Shown: positions 1 through 14,106 of the stretch, one piece after another | Layout: the number at the start of each line of letters is the position of its first letter | Numbering within the stretch: the stretch's first letter is position 1 | Source: a virus | Direction: 5' to 3' (one strand) | UHGV virus genome: UHGV-0207341 | Length of the DNA: 14,226 nucleotides | The notes under the pieces: model-generated | Databases searched by the model: none | Told to the model about the DNA's origin: nothing | What the model saw: the letters and a program-made list of their open reading frames with translations, nothing else | Position numbers and translations under genes: made by a program

Positions 1-1706
1 TTCAGGGATACCGCGTAGCCCGCATTGCTGAAATGCTGGGCGAGAAAGTTGCAACCGTTCACAGCTGGAAAAAACGCGACAAGTGGGGTGACTATGGGCC
101 GCTGGATCAGATGCAGCTCACCACCGCCGCACGCTATTGCCAGCTCATTATGAAGGAGCACAAAGAAGGGAAAGATTTCAAAGAAATTGACCTGCTGGCG
201 CGCCAGTCGGAGCGCCACGCGCGGATCGGCAAGTTTAACAATGGCGGCAACGAAGCCGACTTAAACCCTAACGTCGCCAACCGCAACAAGGGCCCGCGCC
301 GTCAGCCGGAAAAGAATGTTTTCACCGATGAACAGATTGAGAAGCTGGAAGAAATCTTCCATTCCTCCATGTTCAACTACCAGCGCCACTGGTGGGAAGC
401 CGGAAAAACCAACCGCATCCGCAACCTGCTGAAGTCACGCCAGATCGGCGCGACCTTTTACTTTGCCCGTGAAGCCCTGATTGACGCCCTGCTTACCGGA
501 CGTAACCAGATTTTCCTTTCCGCCAGTAAGGCACAGGCTCACGTCTTTAAGCAGTACATCATCGACTTCGCCAAAGAAGTGGAGGTGGAGCTGAAAGGCG
601 ATCCGATGGTGCTTCCTAACGGGGCCACGCTTTACTTCCTCGGCACCAATGCCCGCACGGCCCAGAGTTATCACGGCAACCTGTATCTGGATGAATATTT
701 CTGGATACCGAAATTTCAGGAGCTGCGCAAAGTGGCTTCCGGTATGGCTATTCACAAGAAATGGCGGCAGACCTATTTTTCCACACCATCCAGTCTGACC
801 CACAGTGCTTATCCGTTCTGGTCCGGTGCGCTGTTCAACCGTGGGCGCAACAAAGCTGACAAGGTGGACATCGACCTGTCCCACAGCAATCTGGCCCCCG
901 GCCTTCTGTGCGCCGACGGGCAATACCGCCAGATAGTCACCGTGGAAGATGCGGTGCGCGGCGGCTGTAACCTGTTCGACCTCGACCAGTTGCGCATGGA
1001 GTACAGCCCGGACGAATACCAGAACCTGCTGATGTGTGAGTTCGTGGACGATCTCGCGTCCGTGTTCCCGTTCAGCGAGCTGCAGGCGTGCATGGTAGAC
1101 AGCTGGGAAGTCTGGACCGACTTTCATGCACTGGCCCTTCGCCCGTTTGGCTGGCGCGAAGTGTGGATCGGTTATGACCCGGCAAAAGGTACGCAGAACG
1201 GCGACAGTGCCGGATGCGTGGTGGTGGCACCGCCAGCCGTGTCGGGTGGTAAGTTTCGCATTCTTGAGCGTCACCAGTGGCGCGGGATGGACTTCCGCGC
1301 CCAGGCTGACGCCATCAAAAAACTGACCGAACAGTACAACGTGACCTACATCGGCATCGACTCGACCGGCGTCGGCCACGGGGTTTACGAGAACGTGAAA
1401 GCGTTTTTTCCAGCCGTCCGGGAGTTTGTCTACAACCCCAACGTTAAAAACGCCCTGGTACTCAAAGCCTACGACATTATCAGTCACCGCCGTCTGGAGT
1501 TTGACGCCGGGCATACCGACATTGCGCAGTCCTTTATGGCAATCCGTCGTGCCACCACCGCCAGTGGCAACCGCCCGACCTATGAAGCCAGCCGCAGCGA
1601 AGAAGCCAGCCACGCCGATCTGGCGTGGGCAACGATGCACGCACTGTTTAACGAACCGCTGCAGGGCGAATCCGCCAATACCAGCAATATTGTGGAGATT
1701 TTTTGA
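1..1706 (+). CDS. P: Terminase ATPase (large) subunit, P2 gpP family; 5' end lies upstream of the window
   Basis: Frame is open from the window edge (no stop before the in-frame ATG at 33) to TGA at 1704-1706. Size and character of the 557+ aa translation fit P2-family terminase ATPase subunits (recognition by eye). Stop overlaps the portal start (TGATG), matching the P-then-Q late operon order. Confidence 0.85.
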   Translation, partial: QGYRVARIAEMLGEKVATVHSWKKRDKWGDYGPLDQMQLTTAARYCQLIMKEHKEGKDFKEIDLLARQSERHARIGKFNNGGNEADLNPNVANRNKGPRRQPEKNVFTDEQIEKLEEIFHSSMFNYQRHWWEAGKTNRIRNLLKSRQIGATFYFAREALIDALLTGRNQIFLSASKAQAHVFKQYIIDFAKEVEVELKGDPMVLPNGATLYFLGTNARTAQSYHGNLYLDEYFWIPKFQELRKVASGMAIHKKWRQTYFSTPSSLTHSAYPFWSGALFNRGRNKADKVDIDLSHSNLAPGLLCADGQYRQIVTVEDAVRGGCNLFDLDQLRMEYSPDEYQNLLMCEFVDDLASVFPFSELQACMVDSWEVWTDFHALALRPFGWREVWIGYDPAKGTQNGDSAGCVVVAPPAVSGGKFRILERHQWRGMDFRAQADAIKKLTEQYNVTYIGIDSTGVGHGVYENVKAFFPAVREFVYNPNVKNALVLKAYDIISHRRLEFDAGHTDIAQSFMAIRRATTASGNRPTYEASRSEEASHADLAWATMHALFNEPLQGESANTSNIVEIF

Positions 1707-2734
1707 TGGGAAAGAGTAAAAAGAACCGCGCTGCGTCGACGAACCAGATCCAGCATAAAAGCCAGACTTCAGCCGAAGCATTCAGCTTTGGTGATCCCAT
1801 TCCTGTACTGGACCGCCGCGAACTGCTGGACTATGTGGAATGCGTACAGACGGATCGCTGGTATGAGCCACCCGTAAGTTTTGACGGACTGGCGCGCACC
1901 TTCCGCGCTGCCGTGCATCACAGTTCCCCGATTGCAGTAAAGTGCAACATTCTGACCAGTACCTATATCCCTCATCCGCTGCTCAGCCAACAGGCTTTTT
2001 CGCGTTTTGTGCAGGACTATCTGGTATTTGGTAACGCCTACCTGGAGAAACGCACGAACCGATTCGGTGAAGTTATCGCCCTTGAGCCTGCGCTGGCAAA
2101 ATACACCCGACGTGGGTTAGACCTGGATACCTACTGGTTTGTGCAATACGGCATGACTACGCAGCCGTATCAGTTCACGAAAGGCAGCATTTTTCATCTG
2201 ATGGAACCGGACATCAACCAGGAGATCTACGGCCTGCCCGGTTATCTTTCTGCCATTCCGTCAGCCCTGCTCAACGAGTCCGCCACGCTGTTCCGCCGTA
2301 AGTATTACATCAACGGCAGCCATGCAGGCTTCATCATGTACATGACCGATGCCGCGCAGAATCAGGAGGATGTGAACAACCTCCGCAACGCGATGAAAAG
2401 TGCCAAAGGTCCTGGTAACTTCCGTAACCTGTTTATGTACTCGCCTAACGGTAAAAAAGACGGGCTTCAGATTATCCCGTTGTCAGAAGTCGCGGCGAAG
2501 GATGAATTTCTTAACATCAAGAACGTGAGTCGGGATGACATGATGGCAGCGCATCGTGTGCCGCCACAAATGATGGGGATTATGCCGAATAATGTTGGGG
2601 GGTTTGGGGATGTGGAGAAGGCTAGTAAAGTATTTGTTCGTAATGAGTTATTACCGTTGCAAAAAAGATTACAGGAAATAAACATATGGCTAGATGAGGA
2701 AATAGTAACATTCGATAGTTATCAGCTTACTTGA
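1706..2734 (+). CDS. Q: Portal (capsid vertex) protein, P2 gpQ family
   Basis: 342-aa ORF starting at ATG 1706 (the track's 1703 start is a TTG one codon upstream), with GGAG about 6 nt upstream. Size and position immediately downstream of the terminase gene fit P2 gpQ. Followed by a strong hairpin terminator. Confidence 0.85.
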   Translation: MGKSKKNRAASTNQIQHKSQTSAEAFSFGDPIPVLDRRELLDYVECVQTDRWYEPPVSFDGLARTFRAAVHHSSPIAVKCNILTSTYIPHPLLSQQAFSRFVQDYLVFGNAYLEKRTNRFGEVIALEPALAKYTRRGLDLDTYWFVQYGMTTQPYQFTKGSIFHLMEPDINQEIYGLPGYLSAIPSALLNESATLFRRKYYINGSHAGFIMYMTDAAQNQEDVNNLRNAMKSAKGPGNFRNLFMYSPNGKKDGLQIIPLSEVAAKDEFLNIKNVSRDDMMAAHRVPPQMMGIMPNNVGGFGDVEKASKVFVRNELLPLQKRLQEINIWLDEEIVTFDSYQLT

Positions 2735-2740
2735 AAAAAC

Positions 2741-2761
2741 GGAGTCAGATATTCTGACTCC
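2741..2761. terminator. Bidirectional rho-independent terminator shared by convergent genes
   Basis: Perfect inverted repeat GGAGTCAGA / TCTGACTCC (2741-2749 and 2753-2761) around a 3-nt loop. A T-run follows on the + strand (TTATTT) and on the - strand (read as GTTTTTTCAA). It lies 6 nt after the Q stop and 5 nt after the stop of the minus-strand TIR-like gene. Confidence 0.7.
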
Positions 2762-2766
2762 TTATT

Positions 2767-3369
2767 TCAACCAAGAATGGACTTCAATGACAAATTGAGC
2801 TTATCAATTAATTTTTCATCCTCATAGTTTACAGACTTGATGTTTTTGAGCATCGCAGGCAATTCAGCATCACCAATTATCACAGGAATTATAGGAACAT
2901 AGTTTTCATCTTTTACCGTAGCTTTACGGAGAAAGCCCTCTACCTCTTTTCTTATATATGACTCCATATCTTCATTAGACAGAAGCAATATAGCCGCAGC
3001 GCTATTGTCTATAGCCTGATTAATTTGCTTTTCAATAATCTGCCCGGGCAATATGTTATTTTCATCAAACCATACATCAAAACCTAACTCATTAAGCTTA
3101 CAAGTTATTTGACGGGCCTTATCTTTTTCTTGTACGGGATACATTAGAAATATTTGCTTTCCTTTTTTAACGGCCTTTAGTCTTCTTTCCCTTAATTTCA
3201 TTAACACAATCAAACTCAGGCCAGAATAGGCAAAAGATAAGCCAATCACGGAGATGATAATCTCATCATTAACTCCTTGAAATAAATATGGGAGCCGTGG
3301 AATAAGAGCCATAAGAAACCCAACAACAGCCAATGCAATTGAAATAATATAAAGAGTATTTTTTTTCAT
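2767..3369 (-). CDS. Membrane-anchored TIR-like domain protein (2 predicted N-terminal TM helices plus C-terminal TIR-like domain)
   Basis: 200-aa ORF. Two hydrophobic segments at about residues 6-24 and 37-57, then a basic linker. Residues about 72-200 show the TIR pattern by eye: IFLMY strand, helix, DVWFDENNILPGQII, EKQINQAIDNSAAAILLLS, SYIRKEVEGF helix, VPIIPVII strand. ATG at 3367-3369 directly abuts the TAA of the upstream gene (TAAATG). Gene looks strongly AT-rich versus neighbouring phage core genes. Confidence 0.75.
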   Translation of the reverse strand: MKKNTLYIISIALAVVGFLMALIPRLPYLFQGVNDEIIISVIGLSFAYSGLSLIVLMKLRERRLKAVKKGKQIFLMYPVQEKDKARQITCKLNELGFDVWFDENNILPGQIIEKQINQAIDNSAAAILLLSNEDMESYIRKEVEGFLRKATVKDENYVPIIPVIIGDAELPAMLKNIKSVNYEDEKLIDKLNLSLKSILG

Positions 3370-3786
3370 TTACACACCCTTAATCCACAAAACAAAGGAA
3401 GCAAAAAATAATATGCCGACTAAATTACACCCAATACATAAAACCCAAATTTGACCTTTTGGATTTCCTGTTCGCCCTTCCCAATCTTGATGAAAAGACA
3501 TGATCCCCAGTAATACAAAAAGAGAGAAGGCAAGAAAGCTAGTAGTTCCAATGTACTGATTAACCACTTGGTTAACCGTGGTTACTGTTTGAACAGTTTT
3601 AGTCAAATCATATAAATTCAACAATGATGCACCAATTGTTGATAATATCAACTCATTCCCAAAGTAAAAATCACTCTTTTGCCAACCAGAGGATCTGGCA
3701 AGTTTTTTTACAAAAGCCCCACATAGAATCATCAACAATGGAAAAATTAAAGCAACAACGTATTTATTACCAATGACATCAATCAT
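3370..3786 (-). CDS. Small polytopic inner-membrane protein (about 4 predicted TM helices), unknown function; first gene of the TIR operon
   Basis: 138-aa ORF with ATG at 3784-3786 and AAGGAA about 9 nt upstream. Hydrophobic segments at about residues 10-26, 45-60, 82-98 and 112-135. Stop is immediately followed by the ATG of the TIR-like gene. AT-rich. Confidence 0.7.
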   Translation of the reverse strand: MIDVIGNKYVVALIFPLLMILCGAFVKKLARSSGWQKSDFYFGNELILSTIGASLLNLYDLTKTVQTVTTVNQVVNQYIGTTSFLAFSLFVLLGIMSFHQDWEGRTGNPKGQIWVLCIGCNLVGILFFASFVLWIKGV

Positions 3787-3976
3787 TAATCATCATTCCT
3801 TCAATAAATCGCATCACGCCTTTTTGTTTTTAGCTTCATCCACAACCAGTCACCATCGACATCAATATATCACATACTAAATATATAATAATTTTATCGA
3901 ACTATACAAAGCAACCAAGAGTAAAAATAACATACTCTGCCTTACATTCGAAAGGACATTATTATCCCAACGCGCG

Positions 3977-3995
3977 CTCGTATCCCCGCCACGCC
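3977..3995. other. Candidate cos (cohesive end) site of the P2/186 type
   Basis: The minus strand reads GGCGTGGCGGGGATACGAG. The first 13 nt match my recollection of the conserved GGCG(A/T)GGCGGGGA start of the 19-nt cohesive ends of P2 and 186. It is a GC-rich island in an AT-rich intergenic region, with an inverted repeat TCATGCA-GT-TGCATGA (4018-4033) alongside. Exact ends not verifiable from sequence alone. Confidence 0.35.
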
Positions 3996-4040
3996 TGCCC
4001 GCTTTATGTAGTGGTTTTCATGCAGTTGCATGATCTACGC

Positions 4041-4064
4041 AAAAGCCCGCCAGTTCTGGCGGGC
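4041..4064 (-). terminator. Rho-independent terminator of the 71-aa/280-aa operon
   Basis: GC-rich hairpin GCCCGCCAG-(tt)-CTGGCGGGC at 4045-4064, followed on the minus strand by TTTT (plus-strand AAAA 4041-4044). Lies 49 nt downstream of the stop of the 280-aa gene. Confidence 0.7.
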
Positions 4065-4112
4065 CTCAGCAAAAATGATCCTCAAACGATCATGCGATCT
4101 CATGCAGCATAG

Positions 4113-4955
4113 TCATGCACGATCATTTGACTCAGCATCTGCTGCACGCTTGCTGCGCGAAGATGCACTTTTACTACCAATCTTTCGACAGTTCTTTCTA
4201 TCCCTGGCTTCATTTTCTTTAAATTTGTTATATGTCTCAGTATCAAAAAACGAAATTGTTTCAACCTCATCTTTTGGTATGAGCACACGGAAATCTTCGA
4301 TATTAAGCCGAGACATTCCACTTATCACACCACTATCAAGATAATGTTGGTGATAGTTAGTCGTGATACTAATCGTTAGATCATCTTTATCCCGATATCC
4401 GCTTAACATCGGGAGAAGTTCAAGGTGCTCTGAAAGCCCGTTTTCTAACGCCGGACAAGTAACAAGGCCAACATAGATTTTGCGAGACGACAGAGTTGCT
4501 ATGATCGGAAACTGTCTTGCGGACGCTTCCATAAGTAATGATTCGAAAGCGTTATTACCCACAGCTTTAGCTAAGGCATCCCAGCGACGATCTCCACGTG
4601 ATGTGCGTAACTTATTTCCAAAACCTGAAATCGCAGCGAGGACAATTGAAATCATAACCCATGCTATCTGTTTGATTTCATTTATTCTTTGAAGTTTGTC
4701 TTTCGATGAAGACAACATGCCATTAAAACTGTCAGGTGTTAGATTCAAGGCATTAGCCAGCCAACGAAACCCTCCGCTGACGTTCAAAATAAAGGTGAAA
4801 AAACCGCCAAGGAGAAAAAAAACGATACCCCAGGCAGCCACAAAAAAATAAGCGTCCCAGCCGTTGGAACGCTTATATCGGTATCTTGTTGAAAGTGATA
4901 GGTTTACATAAATAAAACCACTAACCAAAATCACTGCTAAAAGTAATGTTGCCAT
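4113..4955 (-). CDS. Membrane protein of unknown function (3 predicted N-terminal TM helices plus about 170-aa C-terminal soluble domain with a basic tail)
   Basis: 280-aa ORF with ATG at 4953-4955, overlapping the stop of the upstream 71-aa ORF (TAATG). Hydrophobic segments at about residues 3-17, 36-57 and 97-113. Family not recognised. Followed by its own terminator. Confidence 0.7.
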   Translation of the reverse strand: MATLLLAVILVSGFIYVNLSLSTRYRYKRSNGWDAYFFVAAWGIVFFLLGGFFTFILNVSGGFRWLANALNLTPDSFNGMLSSSKDKLQRINEIKQIAWVMISIVLAAISGFGNKLRTSRGDRRWDALAKAVGNNAFESLLMEASARQFPIIATLSSRKIYVGLVTCPALENGLSEHLELLPMLSGYRDKDDLTISITTNYHQHYLDSGVISGMSRLNIEDFRVLIPKDEVETISFFDTETYNKFKENEARDRKNCRKIGSKSASSRSKRAADAESNDRA

Positions 4956-5170
4956 TATCTGGTTCTATTAGTTTTCTCTTTTACAGTGCTCGTTTTGATG
5001 CCTTCAAGCTTATCCATCTGTGCCTTGATGGCATCCATTGCTCTTTTGTTAGACAAGTCTACGGACACAAAACCATCTTTACTAAGATTGAGTTTGTCCT
5101 GGTTCTCTTTAAGAACCCTTGCCAGACGTTCAACTGGGTTACCCAGGCTAAATGCGGCGATGCTTGACAT
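4955..5170 (-). CDS. Small hypothetical protein (71 aa), first gene of a two-gene operon with the 280-aa membrane protein
   Basis: ATG at 5168-5170 with GGGGGAG about 5 nt upstream. Stop overlaps the next ATG by one base. Hydrophilic, no recognisable domain by eye. Confidence 0.6.
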   Translation of the reverse strand: MSSIAAFSLGNPVERLARVLKENQDKLNLSKDGFVSVDLSNKRAMDAIKAQMDKLEGIKTSTVKEKTNRTR

Positions 5171-5440: not shown

Positions 5441-5674
5441 TTAATGCAGCCAGCTGTCGTCTTCCCACACCTTCTGCATAATTTTCATCACTTGTTTTCT
5501 TTCTTCGTCCTGTTGCAGTCCGGTCAGTTCCACACCGTTAGAGCTACCTTTGCGGATACGAATTACCGTTTTGGGATACAGGGGGCGCAGATTGCGGTAA
5601 AGCTCGGATTCAAGGGCGTCCAGTGTAGACTGGCTAATCTTCTGCTCTTTATCGATCATTATTTCAATGCGCAT
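5441..5674 (-). CDS. DinI-family protein (resembles the C-terminal DinI-like half of phage 186 Tum antirepressor)
   Basis: Taking the internal ATG at 5672-5674 (GAGGTG 5 nt upstream), the 77-aa product begins MRIEIMIDKEQ and ends WEDDSWLH. This parallels E. coli DinI (MRIEVTIAK ... ETWESADDWFV) by eye. The longer track ORF (start 5746) overlaps the upstream gene and is unlikely. Confidence 0.75.
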   Translation of the reverse strand: MRIEIMIDKEQKISQSTLDALESELYRNLRPLYPKTVIRIRKGSSNGVELTGLQQDEERKQVMKIMQKVWEDDSWLH

Positions 5675-5684
5675 AAAAGTCACC

Positions 5685-5873
5685 TCAGCTGATGACATCC
5701 ATTGAGCGGTTGTATTCGTGGGTTCTGATTTTTGCCATGAGTTCATCAGTCAATTCAGAAACCCACTGCAGAGCCAGCCCCTTCTCTTCATCACTACACT
5801 CACTAGCCGCTACAAGCTTAAGAAAAAAATCAATGCGCTGGAGCTTCAAAGACTCCAAAAAATAGTCCTGCAT
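5685..5873 (-). CDS. Small hypothetical protein (62 aa) immediately upstream of the DinI-like gene; possible N-terminal part of a Tum-like antirepressor
   Basis: ATG at 5871-5873 preceded by AGGAGG about 4 nt upstream. Its TGA stop sits inside the ribosome-binding site of the DinI-like gene. Lies directly downstream of a LexA box. Confidence 0.6.
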   Translation of the reverse strand: MQDYFLESLKLQRIDFFLKLVAASECSDEEKGLALQWVSELTDELMAKIRTHEYNRSMDVIS

Positions 5874-5916: not shown

Positions 5917-5932
5917 CTGTTTATATTTACAG
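5917..5932 (-). promoter_or_regulatory. LexA (SOS) box overlapping the -10 of a minus-strand promoter upstream of the Tum/DinI-like operon
   Basis: aCTGT-TTATATTT-ACAGta fits the CTGT-N8-ACAG LexA consensus. On the minus strand a -35-like TTTACA (plus 5952-5957) precedes -10 candidates TATACT or TACTGT that overlap the box. Located about 40 nt upstream of the 62-aa ORF start. Confidence 0.6.
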
Positions 5933-6027: not shown

Positions 6028-8442
6028 TTAATACAGGTTCCGCCACTTATCATCTTCCTGCAAACGCTGGTTCCGATAGAAGATACGCAGGCCTGCTCCT
6101 GACGGAATGCTGCCGCCGCGAAGGAGTAAATCGACCTCTTTCTCGCTGCCATCAAATCCTCTGGACTTCAGTTCATAGACGAGCTGCTGTCGTTGATGGT
6201 CTGTAATTCGCTGTTTGTAGTCTTTACGCCGTTTCGGTTTCACCAGGCGTAACCTTGCTGCCAGTTCCCGGCGCTCTTTTTTGCTCATACTGTGCAGGTA
6301 ATCGTGCAACTCCTTGTCATCCATACGGGTGATATCCGTTCTGGTATCTCCATCAGCTGATTTGTCTTTCCCTTGTTGGTACAAATTTTCAGCAAGGGGA
6401 CAGTTATTGCCACGAGTCCAAGGGGCGCAAGCGCCCTGGTCGGCTACCGCCTCCTGAACGTCAACGGCCTTACGAACCATTTTCCACTTCACTGCATGAG
6501 TGCAGATCTTGCCCTCTGCAATGGGTGACCAGATGCCATAAATACGAATGCCGTGATCGCCATAGGCGGTCGGCTCTTCGTTGATTTCATAAGCGGTTCT
6601 GATAAGGTGATATTTACGGGGAACCAGTACGCCGCCCTGCTTCATGATGTAGGTGGCAAAACAACCAGCATCAGCAGCAGCCAGGATGGCATCAAGGCGC
6701 GGGTCATCCAGTATCGGCGCACCTGCTTTTTTGTCACCCTGTTGCCTTGCCGCCTGACCAGCCAGCAAGCGAAGTTCACGGTAAGCCTGACGTCCCGGAA
6801 TACCAAAGAAGCGGAACTGCTGAACACGATGCAGAGACGCCCAGGCATTAACGTATTCGGCGTTATCACGCAGGGATTTACCCGTTTCCTTGCTGATCTC
6901 GCCAGCCAGACCACGCCCGTCAATGTTCTTACTGATGTATTTCGCGATGTAGCTTGTCGGTGTTCCTTTGCGCGGGTTAATCAGCTCAGACTTAAAGCGT
7001 GGCCCCGTGTTGTTGCCCAGCTCCTCGCGGTCTACACGGATGGCAAACTTACGCAGTAATGCAGTGATGGCGCGGCGGTCTTTTTTACGCATGAAGCACA
7101 TGAGATGCCAGTGCACAGTACCGTCATGGTGCGGCTCAGCCACCCGCACGCCATACCAGCGCAACCCGGTTTTGTGCATTGCCTTACGAAATGCAGCAAA
7201 CATGCCGACCATATAATCGCTGCTTTGTCTTACCGTCGCATTTGTCCAGGTCGGGTTGGGTCTGCCGTTGTTGAGCGTGGAATGGAAACGTGACGGACAG
7301 GTGATAGTGTAGAAAACGGCGCAGTCACCGCGCATTTCCGCGATAAGCTCCAGACCTTTAACACAGGCCATCATCTCATTGCGGCGATGCGCAGGGTTGC
7401 TGCTGCTGGCGTTTACCACATCCTCCATGTCCAGCGTGTCGCCGTCTTCGTTCACCAGTTCATGAGAACGGAAAAACTCCAGCGACTTACGGCGCAGCTC
7501 ACGTTTATGCATCACGGCTTCATAGCTGACATAGGGAGATGCTTTTTTGCTGACCAGGCAGACAGCACGCAACTGCTCTTCCCGCCATTCGCAACGCATC
7601 TTCCATAATTTCCGATACCACCAGTCGGCGCACAACATACGCGCCAGCGAACCCGGAATGAGTTCATAGGGCACGGGTTTACGGCGGTTTCTTTTCCGAC
7701 GGAGTAGCTCAAACGCAGGTGGGATGACATCCAGACGCAGGGTTTCCGCCGCCACCTTTTCCCATGTCTTGCGGATTTCTTCTGGCTTAACGTCATCGGT
7801 GGCATACAAATCGCCACAAGCTGCATCAAGGCACATGCTCATATGCGCAGCTACCAGGGTGGACAGGCGTTTCACCTGATCCTGACTCATTTCAGGCAGG
7901 ATCAGCAGGCCCTCCAGCCCTTGATGGCTTGCCATAAAACGGAAAGAAGCAGACAGCTGACTGTCACGTACACAATCCAGTCGCTCCAGACATGGCTTAA
8001 TCGTCTCACGCAAATAGCGGGAATAAGCCTTTGGCCTGCCCAGGCTGCTGAAGTATTCGATACGTTGCATCAGCGGCTTGCTAATATGGGTGGGCTGGGC
8101 GCTGACGTCCGCCAGAATGACCATGTCCGGGTTAAAACGCTGCTGTTCATGCGCTAGCTTTGCCCGGCTAATGAGCTTATCCTGCTCCATTTCGCGCTGG
8201 ACAGGATCACGAGATTCATTAAAGAAATAACGCTCCCAGACCTGCTCACTCAGTGCATCGCGGCGCAGCTGTTCCTGCTCATTATCGGCAGCGTACAGAG
8301 TGATCAGGTTTAAAAGTGCAGACTCCGGAGCAACTTCCGCCGGGTCCAGATAAGGGTTAATGGCCTTTTTCGGGCCGTTCCATGAAAATGCTGCAGCGGC
8401 CTCGTTAAAGCCGCTAGAGTTGCTCATATCGTCATGACTCAT
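6028..8442 (-). CDS. A: Replication initiation protein (rolling-circle initiator endonuclease), P2 gpA family
   Basis: 804-aa ORF, the largest in the early operon. Size, position downstream of small early genes and general character fit P2/186 A protein (recognition by eye; catalytic motifs not verified). Start ATG at 8440-8442 overlaps the Dam stop (ATGA); a second in-frame ATG five codons downstream is an alternative start. Confidence 0.8.
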
Positions 8443-12654: not shown

Positions 12655-14106
12655 ATGGATATTGAGTGGAATTGGGATCAAGATGACGAATTTCTTGGTG
12701 AAAAATTACCTGCTGATACATTGGACAGAAAAAAGTACGCAAAATATCTTTATGAAATCTGTGCTGCACGCGGTGCTAAATCCAATCTCGTAGTTAACAT
12801 TAATGCGGAATGGGGGGCTGGAAAAACATATTTTACTAAACGCCTAGCCAAGACAATTTCCCACTACCATCCCACAATATACATTGATGCTTGGAAAGAA
12901 GATTTTACTGAAGACCCATTGCTCACAGTATTTAGTGGAATTAAAGATCAATTATCTGGTCAATCTGATAGCTTTACTGCTTTAATCAATTCAACAATTG
13001 AGAATGTCGGTCCTTTGCTAAAAACAGCGGCACCAGTTATTATTGATGGATTAATACAAAAGTTCACAGGGGTTGACTCCTTTTCTAACCTAACTAAAGA
13101 CTTATCATCTAAGCTAATAGAAATACACGCAGAAAAATCAACGAGAATAGAGACAGTAAGAAAAGGAATTAGTCGTTGGGTTGAATTCATTGGGCGAAAA
13201 GATGGAATAGATAAAGAGCTTCCATTATTTATAATAATTGATGAACTTGATAGATGTAGGCCCGATTTTTCCATTAGTCTTTTAGAAATCTCCAAGCATA
13301 TTTTTAACATCCCTGGCGTAGTATTTATTATTGCCACTGACACCCAACAATTACAGCATTCAATAAAAGTTATATATGGCACTAATTTTTCAGCAAGTCA
13401 TTATCTAAGCAGGTTTTTTGACCGTCGATTCCTTCTCCCAACGCCAGAATACAAAGACTTACTATTAACAAAAACAGGTGAAAACATAATTTCGGAATTT
13501 AATTCTTTACGTAAAAAATTAATTCCATGCCCACAAGACATCACATCATTTGTTAAAAATTGTTCATCCATATTATTATCCATAAAAATAAACATCAGAG
13601 ACGCTGTAAAAATATACGAGAGGCTAATAGACATACTTATCACGTCAAATAAAACATTTGACCCCAATCTAATGTTGATATTATCTGCATTTAATTTCAA
13701 AGATCATGATGTATATGCAAAAATAAAATCAAAAGAAAAGCTAATTCCTAGTCCTCTCAACACAGAGATAGATTTATCATTTGATTTATCTTATGAAACT
13801 ACACAAGTCAAGTACTTCCAAGCTAATGGTGGTGTTTATAGTAATACGTATAAACAAAAAGAAATTTCAACAAATGTTCTATTTTACATAGAGACTGCTT
13901 GGAACACCTTAACGATAGCAAGAACCGCACCTGTTGGCACGCGACCTTACAATACTCCAGAACTTTGGATGGAAGGAGAGTTGTCTCAGGAGGAATCATT
14001 AGCGAACTTTCTCAAAATGGGATACGCCAAAAGCCGGTACAATGAAAGTGAACTAAAAATTCATCAATATTTCGATTTAATTGAACTGAGCACAACATTT
14101 GATTGA
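12655..14106 (+). CDS. KAP-family P-loop NTPase (soluble variant), accessory gene in the repressor operon
   Basis: 483-aa ORF. Walker A in NINAEWGAGKTYF, the KAP-typical IDAWKEDF motif, and Walker B in FIIIDELDRCRP (the DELDRC signature). ATG at 12655 follows the cI TAA with zero spacer, with GAGG 5 nt upstream. Looks strongly AT-rich. No obvious TM insert between Walker A and B. Confidence 0.8.
   Translation: MDIEWNWDQDDEFLGEKLPADTLDRKKYAKYLYEICAARGAKSNLVVNINAEWGAGKTYFTKRLAKTISHYHPTIYIDAWKEDFTEDPLLTVFSGIKDQLSGQSDSFTALINSTIENVGPLLKTAAPVIIDGLIQKFTGVDSFSNLTKDLSSKLIEIHAEKSTRIETVRKGISRWVEFIGRKDGIDKELPLFIIIDELDRCRPDFSISLLEISKHIFNIPGVVFIIATDTQQLQHSIKVIYGTNFSASHYLSRFFDRRFLLPTPEYKDLLLTKTGENIISEFNSLRKKLIPCPQDITSFVKNCSSILLSIKINIRDAVKIYERLIDILITSNKTFDPNLMLILSAFNFKDHDVYAKIKSKEKLIPSPLNTEIDLSFDLSYETTQVKYFQANGGVYSNTYKQKEISTNVLFYIETAWNTLTIARTAPVGTRPYNTPELWMEGELSQEESLANFLKMGYAKSRYNESELKIHQYFDLIELSTTFD

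What the first reader, a model, noticed from the sequence alone, without database searches (positions are those of the whole stretch)
2767..3960. Two-gene membrane/TIR-like operon inserted between the cos-like site and the portal gene
Seen in sequence: a 138-aa polytopic membrane protein and a 200-aa protein (two TM helices plus a TIR-like domain) form a coupled operon (TAAATG junction). It has its own AT-rich upstream region (candidate extended -10 TGaTATATT on the minus strand around 3860-3872) and ends at a bidirectional terminator shared with Q. The genes look much more AT-rich than the flanking structural genes, suggesting horizontal acquisition. Established knowledge: TIR domains in bacteria are NAD-cleaving or signal-generating immune effectors, and P2-like phages carry variable anti-phage cargo near cos; in P2 itself Q lies close to cos, so about 1.2 kb of extra DNA here is an insertion. 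Inference: a compact membrane-associated TIR defense or superinfection-exclusion module, with the small membrane protein as sensor, pore or anchor. I do not recognise this pairing as a described system.
Basis: partly seen in the sequence, partly recalled or inferred. Interest (0 to 1): 0.85.

Follow-up and report, generated by a model that had tools for sequence, protein, structure and literature searches.

The report
Membrane-anchored TIR gene pair, prophage cargo
A P2/186-like prophage carries, between its DNA-packaging site and its portal gene, a foreign two-gene cassette that encodes a small four-helix membrane protein and a membrane-anchored TIR (NAD-cleaving type) protein; the same pair occurs across many bacterial phyla, has never been characterised, and is most likely a compact anti-phage suicide or exclusion module.

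Summary
Two abutting minus-strand genes lie between cos (3977-3995) and the portal gene Q: a 138-aa protein (3370-3786) and a 200-aa protein (2767-3369). The interval has 34.5% GC against 54% for P and Q, and it ends at a strong hairpin (2741-2761). The 200-aa protein has an N-in 2TM hairpin and a cytoplasmic TIR_2 domain. Its Glu142 is invariant and aligns with the catalytic Glu of PdTIR and AbTIR. The 138-aa protein belongs to an unannotated family of about 208 clusters with a confident four-helix model. In 33 of 47 distinct relatives with enough downstream sequence, including Cyanobium, Nitrosomonas and Smithella, its gene is followed directly by a homologous 2TM-TIR gene. More divergent relatives carry a small 2TM protein without TIR. 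The slot is variable: empty in P2 and 186, a PIN-domain gene in sister prophages, and this cassette in 3 of 5426 E. coli genomes. It lies inside the published gpA-gpQ defence hotspot. The pair is not the validated AC1 "2TM+1TM+TIR" system and matches no PADLOC, Pfam or NCBIfam system model. Best reading: an autonomous membrane-complexed TIR abortive-infection module, a new variant of a known kind. Defence activity and the promoter are untested.

The parts
2741..2761 (.). Hairpin terminator between the convergent TIR gene and portal gene Q (GGAGTCAGATATTCTGACTCC). It is followed by a U-run on the cassette transcript.
   Evidence: Terminator scan. RNA folding gives -18.8 and -17.8 kcal/mol, z -5.7, with 0 of 200 shuffles as stable.
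2767..3369 (-). 200-aa 2TM-TIR protein. TM helices are at about residues 5-23 and 37-55 (N-in, C-in). A basic juxtamembrane stretch KLRERRLKAVKKGK follows. The TIR_2 domain covers residues 72-185 (window 3156-2815).
   Evidence: ORF list. Pfam TIR_2 3.6e-17, 63.4 bits. Hydropathy and charge distribution. Family alignment A6. PDB profile hits PdTIR 3h16 3e-12 and AbTIR. dN/dS 0.18.
2944..2946 (-). Codon GAG for Glu142, the predicted catalytic glutamate of the TIR domain.
   Evidence: Invariant in 28 family members. Aligned with the Glu of the 'KEL/YEL' motif of PdTIR, AbTIR-like 7uxr and Cat1 and with the Glu of the AC1 TIR. Codon read.
3370..3786 (-). 138-aa four-helix inner-membrane protein, the partner of the TIR protein. 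Conserved motifs: P16, K27-K28-L-x-R31, W35, D39-F, G43-x-E45, H99-Q-D-W-E103, N121, G124, K136-G137.
   Evidence: ORF. No Pfam, PADLOC or NCBIfam hit. phrog_25392, unknown function. 208 representative relatives. Alignments A1/A3/A5. AF2 pLDDT 89.2 with four helices 8-31, 43-64, 71-102, 109-136. dN/dS 0.05-0.18.
3787..3976 (-). AT-rich leader between cos and the first gene. It holds the SD GAAGGAA (3802-3796) and unverified promoter candidates: TTGGTT (3918-3913) - 16 nt - TAAAAT (3896-3891), and extended -10 TGATATATT (3872-3864).
   Evidence: Sequence. No site passed the sigma-70 scan on this strand. Poorly conserved among orthologous cassettes, apart from a TATGAT-like element about 40-45 nt downstream of cos.
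3977..3995 (-). cos cohesive-end sequence (GGCGTGGCGGGGATACGAG), the boundary of the cargo slot.
   Evidence: Match to the first 12 nt of the 186 and P2 cosL (12 of 12 for 186, 11 of 12 for P2). Invariant in 7 cassette-bearing loci. The flank 3962-4112 is shared with 1274 E. coli genomes.

Best explanation
This is an autonomous two-gene accessory (moron) cassette carried in the variable cos-Q slot of a 186/P2-like prophage. Most likely it acts as an abortive-infection or superinfection-exclusion system built around a membrane-tethered TIR NADase.

Shown:
- The TIR protein is anchored by an N-in/C-in 2TM hairpin, so its catalytic domain (Glu142) faces the cytoplasm.
- The upstream gene encodes a conserved four-helix membrane protein.
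- The two genes abut (stop TAA followed directly by ATG).
- The two genes stay abutted or nearly so (-8 to +5 nt) from enterobacterial prophages to cyanobacteria and deltaproteobacteria.

Inferred:
- The 4TM protein and the 2TM hairpin form a hetero-oligomeric inner-membrane complex. The acidic, conserved cytoplasmic face of the 4TM protein (D39, E45, HQDWE) docks the basic juxtamembrane tail of the TIR protein and keeps the TIR domains apart.
- An infection-linked membrane event (genome injection, holin or other phage membrane protein, loss of membrane potential) or a phage protein rearranges the complex.
- The TIR domains then self-associate, the composite active site forms, and NAD+ is cleaved.
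- The infected cell arrests or dies before the competing phage completes its cycle, which protects the lysogen population and the resident prophage.
For: TIR identity and an intact catalytic Glu.

Cytoplasmic orientation follows from charge distribution: MKK at the N-terminus, RERRLKAVKKGK after TM2.

Tight operon and purifying selection.

Synteny: in 33 of 47 distinct 4TM variants with at least 300 nt downstream, a homologous gene of about 200 aa encoding 2TM-TIR follows at -8 to +5 nt. Taxa include Cyanobium, Competibacteraceae, Nitrosomonas, Smithella and Magnetomoraceae.

No third gene is shared.

More divergent 4TM homologues are followed by a 70-120 aa protein with a 2TM hairpin and basic tail but no TIR. 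This suggests that the TM-TM partnership is the core and TIR is the output. Homology of these small proteins to the TIR N-terminus is only borderline, E about 1e-3.

Conserved residues of the 4TM protein cluster on the two short cytoplasmic loops.

Defence context:
- The cassette lies inside the gpA-gpQ hotspot, where old/tin and the AC1 TIR system were validated (PMC9122126).
- The slot is empty in P2 and 186 and holds a PIN-domain gene in sister prophages.
- The cassette is present in 3 of 5426 E. coli genomes.
- Its GC content is foreign to the prophage.
- Elsewhere it sits next to a bSEFIR gene, an Mrr-type REase, a GHKL ATPase, integrases and transposases.
Against: There are no experimental data for this family.

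The complex between the two proteins is inferred. No multimer prediction was possible, and the TIR AF2 model was poor.

Many neighbours in environmental loci are housekeeping genes, so there is no strong defence-island signal.

TIR domains can also make signalling molecules rather than deplete NAD+.

The homology of the TIR-less 2TM proteins to the TIR N-terminus is weak and compositionally biased.

The trigger is entirely speculative.
Confidence: 0.5

Rival explanations
1. Thoeris-like signalling pair. The TIR protein senses infection and converts NAD+ into an ADPR-derived second messenger. The messenger gates the 4TM protein, which oligomerises into a pore and depolarises the cell.
For: Rousset et al. 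proposed this logic for the AC1 TIR plus TM proteins. It has been shown for small membrane effectors in type II, V, VII and X Thoeris (10.64898/2025.12.03.692087). The 4TM protein has conserved basic residues (K27, K28, R31, R105) on its cytoplasmic loops that could form inter-protomer ligand pockets, as modelled for ThsF.
Against: The 4TM protein has no SLOG, Macro, SLATT or DUF2270 domain, and only about 11- and 6-14-residue cytoplasmic loops. Unlike the Thoeris TIR proteins I know of (from memory; not checked here), this TIR protein is itself membrane-anchored. TIR-less 4TM+2TM pairs exist that could not depend on a TIR-made signal. Hits to ThsB models are weak and far below curated cut-offs. 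No sequence of this family was found in the stored part of the Thoeris catalogue.
Confidence: 0.25
2. A membrane module that serves the prophage itself rather than immunity: a toxin-antitoxin-like addiction or stabilisation pair, or a modulator of lysis or injection. In this reading the 4TM protein neutralises a toxic membrane-bound TIR.
For: The order (small protein first, enzyme second) and the abutting reading frames resemble toxin-antitoxin operons. The cassette rides on mobile elements, next to integrases and transposases. Neighbouring 186 orf97 and other hotspot genes affect phage infection in cis.
Against: The cassette is not in the lysis cluster. It is absent from more than 99% of related prophages, so it is dispensable for the phage cycle. 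Many copies lie in non-mobile chromosomal contexts. Toxin-antitoxin behaviour and abortive-infection defence are not mutually exclusive.
Confidence: 0.12
3. A Tcp-type virulence factor: a bacterial TIR protein that interferes with host Toll-like-receptor signalling, carried as a lysogenic-conversion gene.
For: The best solved relatives include PdTIR and Brucella TcpB. The window and its close matches come from E. coli, including an O157:H16 strain.
Against: The same pair occurs in free-living Cyanobium, Nitrosomonas, Smithella, Competibacteraceae and soil or freshwater metagenomes. The predicted orientation puts the TIR domain in the bacterial cytoplasm, with no secretion signal. The catalytic Glu is strictly conserved.
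Confidence: 0.04

Closest known systems
Rst_2TM_1TM_TIR ('2TM + 1TM + TIR') of P2-like phage AC1 (Rousset et al. 2022, PMC9122126)
   Same: Both lie in the same gpA-gpQ, cos-proximal hotspot of a P2-like phage. Both combine a TIR protein with small membrane proteins. AC1's system is validated against lambda, LF82_P8 and P2, so the concept has a direct precedent.
   Different: AC1 has three genes; this cassette has two. The AC1 TIR protein is 315 aa, soluble, with an N-terminal TIR and a C-terminal helical region. Here the protein is 200 aa with an N-terminal 2TM anchor. Similarity is at the TIR-domain level only (BLASTP none; hhalign 92%, 20% identity). The membrane partners are unrelated.
Thoeris systems with membrane effectors (type II ThsB + TM-Macro; types V ThsF/DUF2270, VII ThsH/SLATT, X ion channel; Yirmiya et al. 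2025 preprint)
   Same: Both are two-gene operons of a TIR protein plus a small multi-pass membrane protein. The likely outcome in both is membrane failure or growth arrest on infection.
   Different: No known effector domain is present in the 4TM partner. Here the TIR protein itself is membrane-anchored. ThsB model hits are only E about 1e-4, and NCBIfam Thoeris models score far below their cut-offs. This configuration is not among the tested or listed configurations that could be read.
TIR NADase effectors of CBASS, Pycsar, SPARTA and type III CRISPR (Cat1), and AbTIR/PdTIR
   Same: These are the closest TIR sequences with solved structures, and they share the catalytic Glu motif. Activation by oligomerisation is the general rule for them (established knowledge).
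   Different: Those TIRs are fused to, or partnered with, SAVED, cyclase, pAgo or CARF sensors. None of these is present in or next to this cassette.
Lambda RexAB and RexAB-like P4 hotspot systems
   Same: Both are prophage-encoded exclusion systems in which a four-TM protein of about 140-150 aa acts at the membrane together with a partner.
   Different: There is no sequence or profile similarity between the 4TM family and a RexB-like 4TM protein (hhalign probability 0.3%). The partner here is a TIR enzyme, not RexA.

Membership tests
TIR domain superfamily (Pfam TIR_2, PF13676) | Profile match above the curated gathering score. | tested here: met
   63.4 bits against a cut-off of 28, residues 73-185. 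PDB profile search gives 40 TIR chains at E <= 1e-3.
TIR domain superfamily (catalytically active NADase/cyclase subset) | Conserved catalytic glutamate in the alpha-C region. | tested here: met
   E142 is invariant in 28 family members and aligns with the Glu of PdTIR, 7uxr and Cat1. Enzymatic activity itself is not testable here.
TIR domain superfamily | Flavodoxin-like TIR fold confirmed by 3D model. | tested here: inconclusive
   The AF2 model from a 5-sequence alignment has pLDDT 53.9, too poor for fold search. The secondary-structure order (strand-helix repeats from residue 72) is compatible with the fold.
Rst_2TM_1TM_TIR (AC1 system) | Three genes: a 2TM protein, a 1TM protein and a soluble TIR protein. 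| tested here: not met
   There are only two genes between cos and Q, and the TIR protein carries its own 2TM anchor.
Rst_2TM_1TM_TIR (AC1 system) | Homology of the components to the AC1 proteins. | tested here: not met
   BLASTP finds no significant alignment for any pair. hhalign finds only the generic TIR domain (92%) and nothing for the membrane proteins. No PADLOC hit for the 4TM protein even at E <= 10.
Cargo of the P2-like gpA-gpQ defence hotspot (Rousset et al. 2022) | Located between replication gene A and portal gene Q, next to cos, and variable among related prophages. | tested here: met
   gpA is at 6028-8442, Q at 1703-2734 and cos at 3977-3995. The slot is empty in P2 and 186 and holds a PIN-domain gene in GF130 and LR-25. 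The cassette is in 3 of 5426 genomes.
Thoeris (any described type) | A ThsB-type TIR plus an effector with a recognised signal-binding or effector domain (SLOG, Macro, SLATT, DUF2270, DUF6650, caspase and others). | tested here: not met
   The 4TM partner has no Pfam, PADLOC or NCBIfam domain. ThsB hits are at E 1e-4 to 7e-3 only, and the NCBIfam Thoeris ThcB4 model scores 25 bits against a cut-off of 220.
Thoeris (functional definition) | Infection-dependent production of an ADPR-derived signal that activates the partner. | not testable with these tools
   This needs LC-MS of infected-cell lysates and effector activation assays.
CBASS / Pycsar TIR effectors | An adjacent CD-NTase or pyrimidine cyclase gene and a SAVED or cNMP-binding sensor fused to TIR. 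| tested here: not met
   No such gene lies in the cos-Q slot or among the neighbours. The SAVED_TIR and CAP12 hits cover only the TIR part.
RexB-like 4TM exclusion proteins | Sequence or profile homology to RexB. | tested here: not met
   No Pfam RexB hit. hhalign against a RexB-like P4-hotspot protein gives probability 0.3%.

The most novel reading that the evidence does not exclude
The conserved unit is an ancient 4TM + 2TM inner-membrane sensor complex onto which a TIR domain has been grafted. On this reading the pair is a bacterial membrane-resident TIR receptor. It reads a membrane event (phage genome entry, holin insertion or loss of proton-motive force) directly and converts it into NAD+ cleavage. 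That would be a sensing principle distinct from the cytoplasmic protein- or nucleic-acid-sensing TIR systems described so far, and architecturally reminiscent of membrane-anchored TIR receptors of eukaryotes. The TIR-less 4TM+2TM pairs would then be the same sensor with a different, perhaps purely membrane-disrupting, output.
Probability: 0.2. Interest if true: 0.75.

Novelty: new variant of a known kind. Interest (0 to 1): 0.5.

Why it matters
TIR domains are the shared currency of innate immunity in animals, plants and bacteria. How bacterial TIRs sense infection is still known for only a few systems. This cassette is very compact, about 1 kb with two small proteins. It is carried by a temperate phage at a validated defence hotspot and is conserved across at least six phyla. 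It is absent from the defence-system model libraries searched here (PADLOC v2, Pfam, NCBIfam 2026).

If it protects, three things follow:
- It would add a new TIR configuration in which the enzyme itself is membrane-tethered and partnered with a novel four-helix protein.
- It would offer a tractable model for membrane-level infection sensing.
- It would improve annotation of about 200 sequence clusters that are now labelled 'hypothetical'.

It also shows that the short cos-Q interval, not only the A-cos side, is a cargo slot in 186-like prophages.

Tried and rejected
- **TIR structure prediction.** The model was unusable, so no fold search was run on it.
- **The search for related loci with broad alignments.** It worked only with the tighter alignment A3, so the sample of loci is biased towards HQDWE/KKLVRG-type members.
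- **Rousset et al. supplementary tables.** I searched for the RefSeq accessions WP_000742490 and WP_000567607 and found nothing, but the relevant file is truncated.
- **Thoeris catalogue supplements.** I searched for peptide strings of this TIR family and found none, but the file is truncated.
- **Literature searches.** Searches for '2TM-1TM-TIR' and 'TM-TIR' gave nothing relevant.
- **tblastn of the TIR protein against 50,697 phage records.** No match. The cassette is so far seen only in prophages and viral contigs (L008, L009).
- **Sigma-70 scan of the leader.** No site on the cassette strand upstream of the first gene.
- **LexA-box search.** The only perfect box (5917-5932) belongs to the upstream tum/DinI operon, not the cassette.
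- **Third component.** I considered a MotA/OmpA (Zorya-like) partner because of the Magnetomoraceae locus. I rejected it because no other locus shares those neighbours.
- **Homology of the TIR-less small 2TM proteins to the TIR N-terminus.** Only borderline, E about 1e-3 with compositional bias, so it is kept as a suggestion and not a result.
Full report
**Setting.** The window is a segment of a 186/P2-like prophage, read in the orientation P→Q. The genes, in order:
- terminase P at 33-1706 (+) and portal Q at 1703-2734 (+);
- the two genes of the finding on the minus strand;
- a 280-aa protein (4113-4955) and a 71-aa protein (4955-5170);
- a DinI/Tum-like gene (5441-5746) and a 62-aa ORF (5685-5873);
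- replication gene A (6028-8442), a Dam methylase, and the cII/apl/cI switch;
- a KAP NTPase (12655-14106).

These assignments rest. The cohesive-end sequence GGCGTGGCGGGGATACGAG lies at 3977-3995 on the minus strand. Its A-side flank aligns with the right end of phage 186, and 1274 of 5426 complete E. coli genomes share that flank.

**Check of the observation.**
- Two minus-strand ORFs of 138 aa (3786-3370) and 200 aa (3369-2767) abut as TAA-ATG. Each start has a Shine-Dalgarno-like sequence.
- The cassette has 34.7% GC, against 54.1% for P+Q.
- A 9-bp GC-rich hairpin at 2741-2761 sits between the convergent TIR gene and Q. It folds far better than shuffled sequence on both strands.
- The distance from cos to the portal stop is 167 nt in P2 and 176 nt in 186, but 1242 nt here. 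About 1.07 kb is therefore extra.
- Both genes are under purifying selection. dN/dS is 0.05-0.18 against orthologues from Enterobacter, Klebsiella and a metagenome.

The one weak element is the promoter. TGATATATT exists at 3872-3864, and a TTGGTT-16-TAAAAT pair lies at 3918-3891. No site passes the scan on that strand, and neither motif is conserved in orthologous leaders.

**The TIR protein.** Pfam TIR_2 matches residues 73-185 at 63.4 bits against a cut-off of 28. PADLOC and NCBIfam give only generic TIR-domain hits, all far below family level: SAVED-TIR, PDC-S66, TIR-pAgo, ThsB, retron-TIR and Thoeris ThcB4.

I aligned 28 family members collected from the loci. Seven positions are invariant: F74, L92, W100, G109, E142, P162 and P171. 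A profile of this alignment finds 40 solved TIR chains. The best are PdTIR (3h16, 3e-12), an AbTIR-like protein (7uxr), Cat1, the SPARTA TIR-APAZ proteins and AbTIR. E142 falls on the glutamate of their KEL/YEL motif.

Hydropathy gives two TM helices, at residues 5-23 and 37-55. MKK precedes them and RERRLKAVKKGK follows them, so the N- and C-termini and the TIR domain face the cytoplasm.

**The 138-aa protein.** It has no hit in Pfam, PADLOC (even at E <= 10) or NCBIfam. PHROGs holds it and the TIR protein as unknown-function families phrog_25392 and phrog_24215.

An exhaustive HMMER scan of 1.84 billion representatives finds 208 relatives at E <= 1e-3 and 90 at E <= 1e-10. Nearly all are 130-150 aa. 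The family has a sharp signature: P16, KKLxRG, W35, DF, GxE45L, HQDWE (99-103), N121, G124 and a C-terminal KG.

AF2 with 32 sequences gives a confident four-helix model, with pLDDT 89 and pTM 0.79. Strict hydropathy finds only three TM segments in the window protein. Helix 2 is clearly hydrophobic in the family consensus. With four TM helices and the positive-inside rule, both conserved loops (KKLxRSSGWxxSD and HQDWEGRxxN) face the cytoplasm.

**The pairing is conserved far beyond phages.** The closest relatives lie next to the portal gene of P2-like prophages or viral contigs. They come from E. coli, Enterobacter, two Klebsiella lineages, an IMG/VR contig and short metagenome contigs. All show the 138-aa gene immediately before the TIR gene.

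I then fetched 56 more loci with a family alignment and analysed all 73 loci with a script. There are 52 distinct 4TM variants, and 47 of them have at least 300 nt downstream. In 33 of these, a homologous 2TM-TIR gene of about 200 aa starts 8 nt before to 5 nt after the 4TM stop. L036 is a 34th case that the ORF caller hid. The hosts include Cyanobium, another cyanobacterium, Competibacteraceae, Nitrosomonas, Smithella, deltaproteobacterial MAGs and Candidatus Magnetomoraceae.

Flanking genes differ in every locus. They range from housekeeping genes (argG, glgC, ABC-F, SBP) to integrases, an IS91 transposase, an Mrr-type REase, a GHKL ATPase and a bSEFIR gene. The two genes are therefore a self-sufficient mobile unit with no third partner.

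**A second configuration.** Thirteen more divergent 4TM variants lack a TIR gene downstream. About eight of them (for example from Blastocatellia, Burkholderia and soil metagenomes) are followed instead by a 70-120 aa protein. That protein consists of an Ala/Gly-rich 2TM hairpin and a basic tail (K-L-x-x-S-K/R...), the same layout as the N-terminus of the TIR protein.

An HMM of the TIR proteins' N-terminal 68 residues detects two of these small proteins at E about 1e-3. The others score only at E 0.3-1.3 with strong compositional bias. Homology is therefore suggested but not shown. If it is real, the core of the system is a 4TM-2TM membrane partnership and the TIR domain is an exchangeable output.

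**Genomic slot.** Rousset et al. (PMC9122126) showed that the cos-proximal interval between gpA and gpQ of P2-like phages is a hotspot of anti-phage systems. Three observations place this cassette there as variable cargo:
- P2 and 186 have nothing between cos and the portal gene.
- Two sister prophages share the same cos flank, and one even has the same 280-aa and 71-aa genes. Both carry a PIN-domain gene in this slot.
- Only 3 of 5426 complete E. coli genomes carry the TIR cassette, at 99.3% identity. None of 50,697 phage records carries it.

The genes are not conserved morphogenetic or lysis genes.

**Comparison with what is known.** The nearest described system is the '2TM + 1TM + TIR' locus of P2-like phage AC1 (DefenseFinder Rst_2TM_1TM_TIR). 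It was validated against lambda, LF82_P8 and P2. Its protein sequences are in Table S2A. BLASTP finds no similarity for any pair. Profile comparison finds only the generic TIR domain, at 92% probability and 20% identity. It finds nothing for the membrane proteins or for a RexB-like 4TM protein. AC1 has three genes and a soluble 315-aa TIR protein. Here there are two genes and an anchored 200-aa TIR protein. Membership is therefore rejected and the analogy is kept.

A December 2025 preprint (10.64898/2025.12.03.692087) describes Thoeris types V-XI and 29 putative types. Several have small membrane effectors: DUF2270, SLATT, an ion channel, and SLOG plus 4TM. The partner here has none of those domains. 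This configuration is not among the 30 tested operons. Peptide strings of this TIR family are absent from the stored, truncated part of the catalogue.

**Mechanism.** I favour a direct membrane complex, with confidence about 0.5 for the combined claim of defence function and this mode.
1. The 4TM protein binds the 2TM hairpin.
2. Its acidic cytoplasmic face docks the basic juxtamembrane tail and keeps the TIR domains monomeric.
3. An infection-linked membrane perturbation or a phage protein releases or clusters the TIR domains.
4. The TIR domains then assemble their composite active site around Glu142 and cleave NAD+.
5. The infection aborts.

The parts shown here are the catalytic residue, the orientation, the operon coupling and the cross-phylum synteny. 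The interaction, the trigger and the outcome are inferred.

The main rival (0.25) is Thoeris-like signalling with the 4TM protein as a ligand-gated pore. In its favour are the precedents. Against it are the minimal loops, the anchoring of the TIR protein and the TIR-less pairs. An addiction or phage-physiology role (0.12) and a Tcp-type virulence role (0.04) are less likely. The reasons are the rarity of the cassette among related prophages and its presence in free-living bacteria.

**Verdict.** This is an uncharacterised, phylogenetically broad two-gene family that belongs to a known kind: TIR plus membrane proteins as phage-borne defence cargo. I rate it a new variant of a known kind, with interest 0.5. 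It is not surprising in concept, but it is compact, testable, and absent from every family and defence-model library searched here.

Noticed in passing
window 12655-14106 (+): A 483-aa KAP-family P-loop NTPase starts immediately after the cI repressor stop (12654). It has 34% GC. It matches PADLOC candidate system PDC-S20 (4e-82), and PifA/QatA more weakly. It sits where the integrase follows cI in the related prophage L001. The same cI+KAP pair occurs in an Enterobacter prophage remnant (L002). It is probably a second defence cargo co-transcribed with the repressor.
   Followed up: partly
window 4113-5170 (-): A 280-aa membrane protein and an overlapping 71-aa protein (phrog_3630 and phrog_9843, unknown function, 41% GC) lie between the DinI/Tum gene and cos. 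This is the position of 186 orf97, which blocks 186 infection when expressed from a plasmid according to the GenBank note. The same pair is in the E. coli GF130 prophage. It is a further candidate exclusion module in the same hotspot.
   Followed up: partly
window 5917-5932 and 4042-4067: A perfect LexA box (CTGTTTATATTTACAG) lies upstream of the 62-aa ORF and the DinI/Tum-like gene, equivalent to the SOS-controlled p95 operon of phage 186. A strong hairpin (-24 kcal/mol) ends that operon just before cos, so the TIR cassette is probably insulated from SOS read-through.
   Followed up: partly
L077 2292-3395 and L078 2330-3391 (E. coli GF130 and LR-25 prophages): Sister prophages carry a 353-367 aa PIN-domain gene in the cos-Q slot in place of the TIR cassette. 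It has no PADLOC hit. The short cos-Q interval is thus itself a polymorphic cargo site.
   Followed up: partly
L015/L016 5001-6790 (Candidatus Magnetomoraceae MAGs): The 4TM+TIR pair sits between motA and an extra OmpA/MotB-like gene, inside a flagellar operon (motA - 4TM - TIR - ompA-like - motB - fliL - fliM - fliN - fliO - fliP). No other locus shows this context, so it is probably an incidental insertion, but it is odd.
   Followed up: partly
L013/L023, L017, L050, L054, L055, L060, L061, L071 (downstream of the 4TM gene): Divergent members of the 4TM family are followed by a 70-120 aa Ala/Gly-rich 2TM protein with a basic tail and no TIR domain. This may be a TIR-less version of the same membrane pair. 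Homology to the TIR protein's N-terminus is only borderline.
   Followed up: partly
L046 1916-2821; L043 1928-2863; L048 5133-7145: In some metagenomic loci the cassette is followed directly by defence-type genes. These are a bSEFIR protein (PADLOC 3e-69, 5 nt downstream), an Mrr-like restriction endonuclease (PDC-S02 / type IV REase) and a GHKL-ATPase REase-like protein.
   Followed up: no
L005 7776-8378 (Klebsiella quasipneumoniae): The public annotation calls this TIR gene as a 125-aa protein (P0005). The locus in fact contains a full 200-aa ORF that abuts the 4TM gene, so the deposited start is probably mis-called.
   Followed up: no
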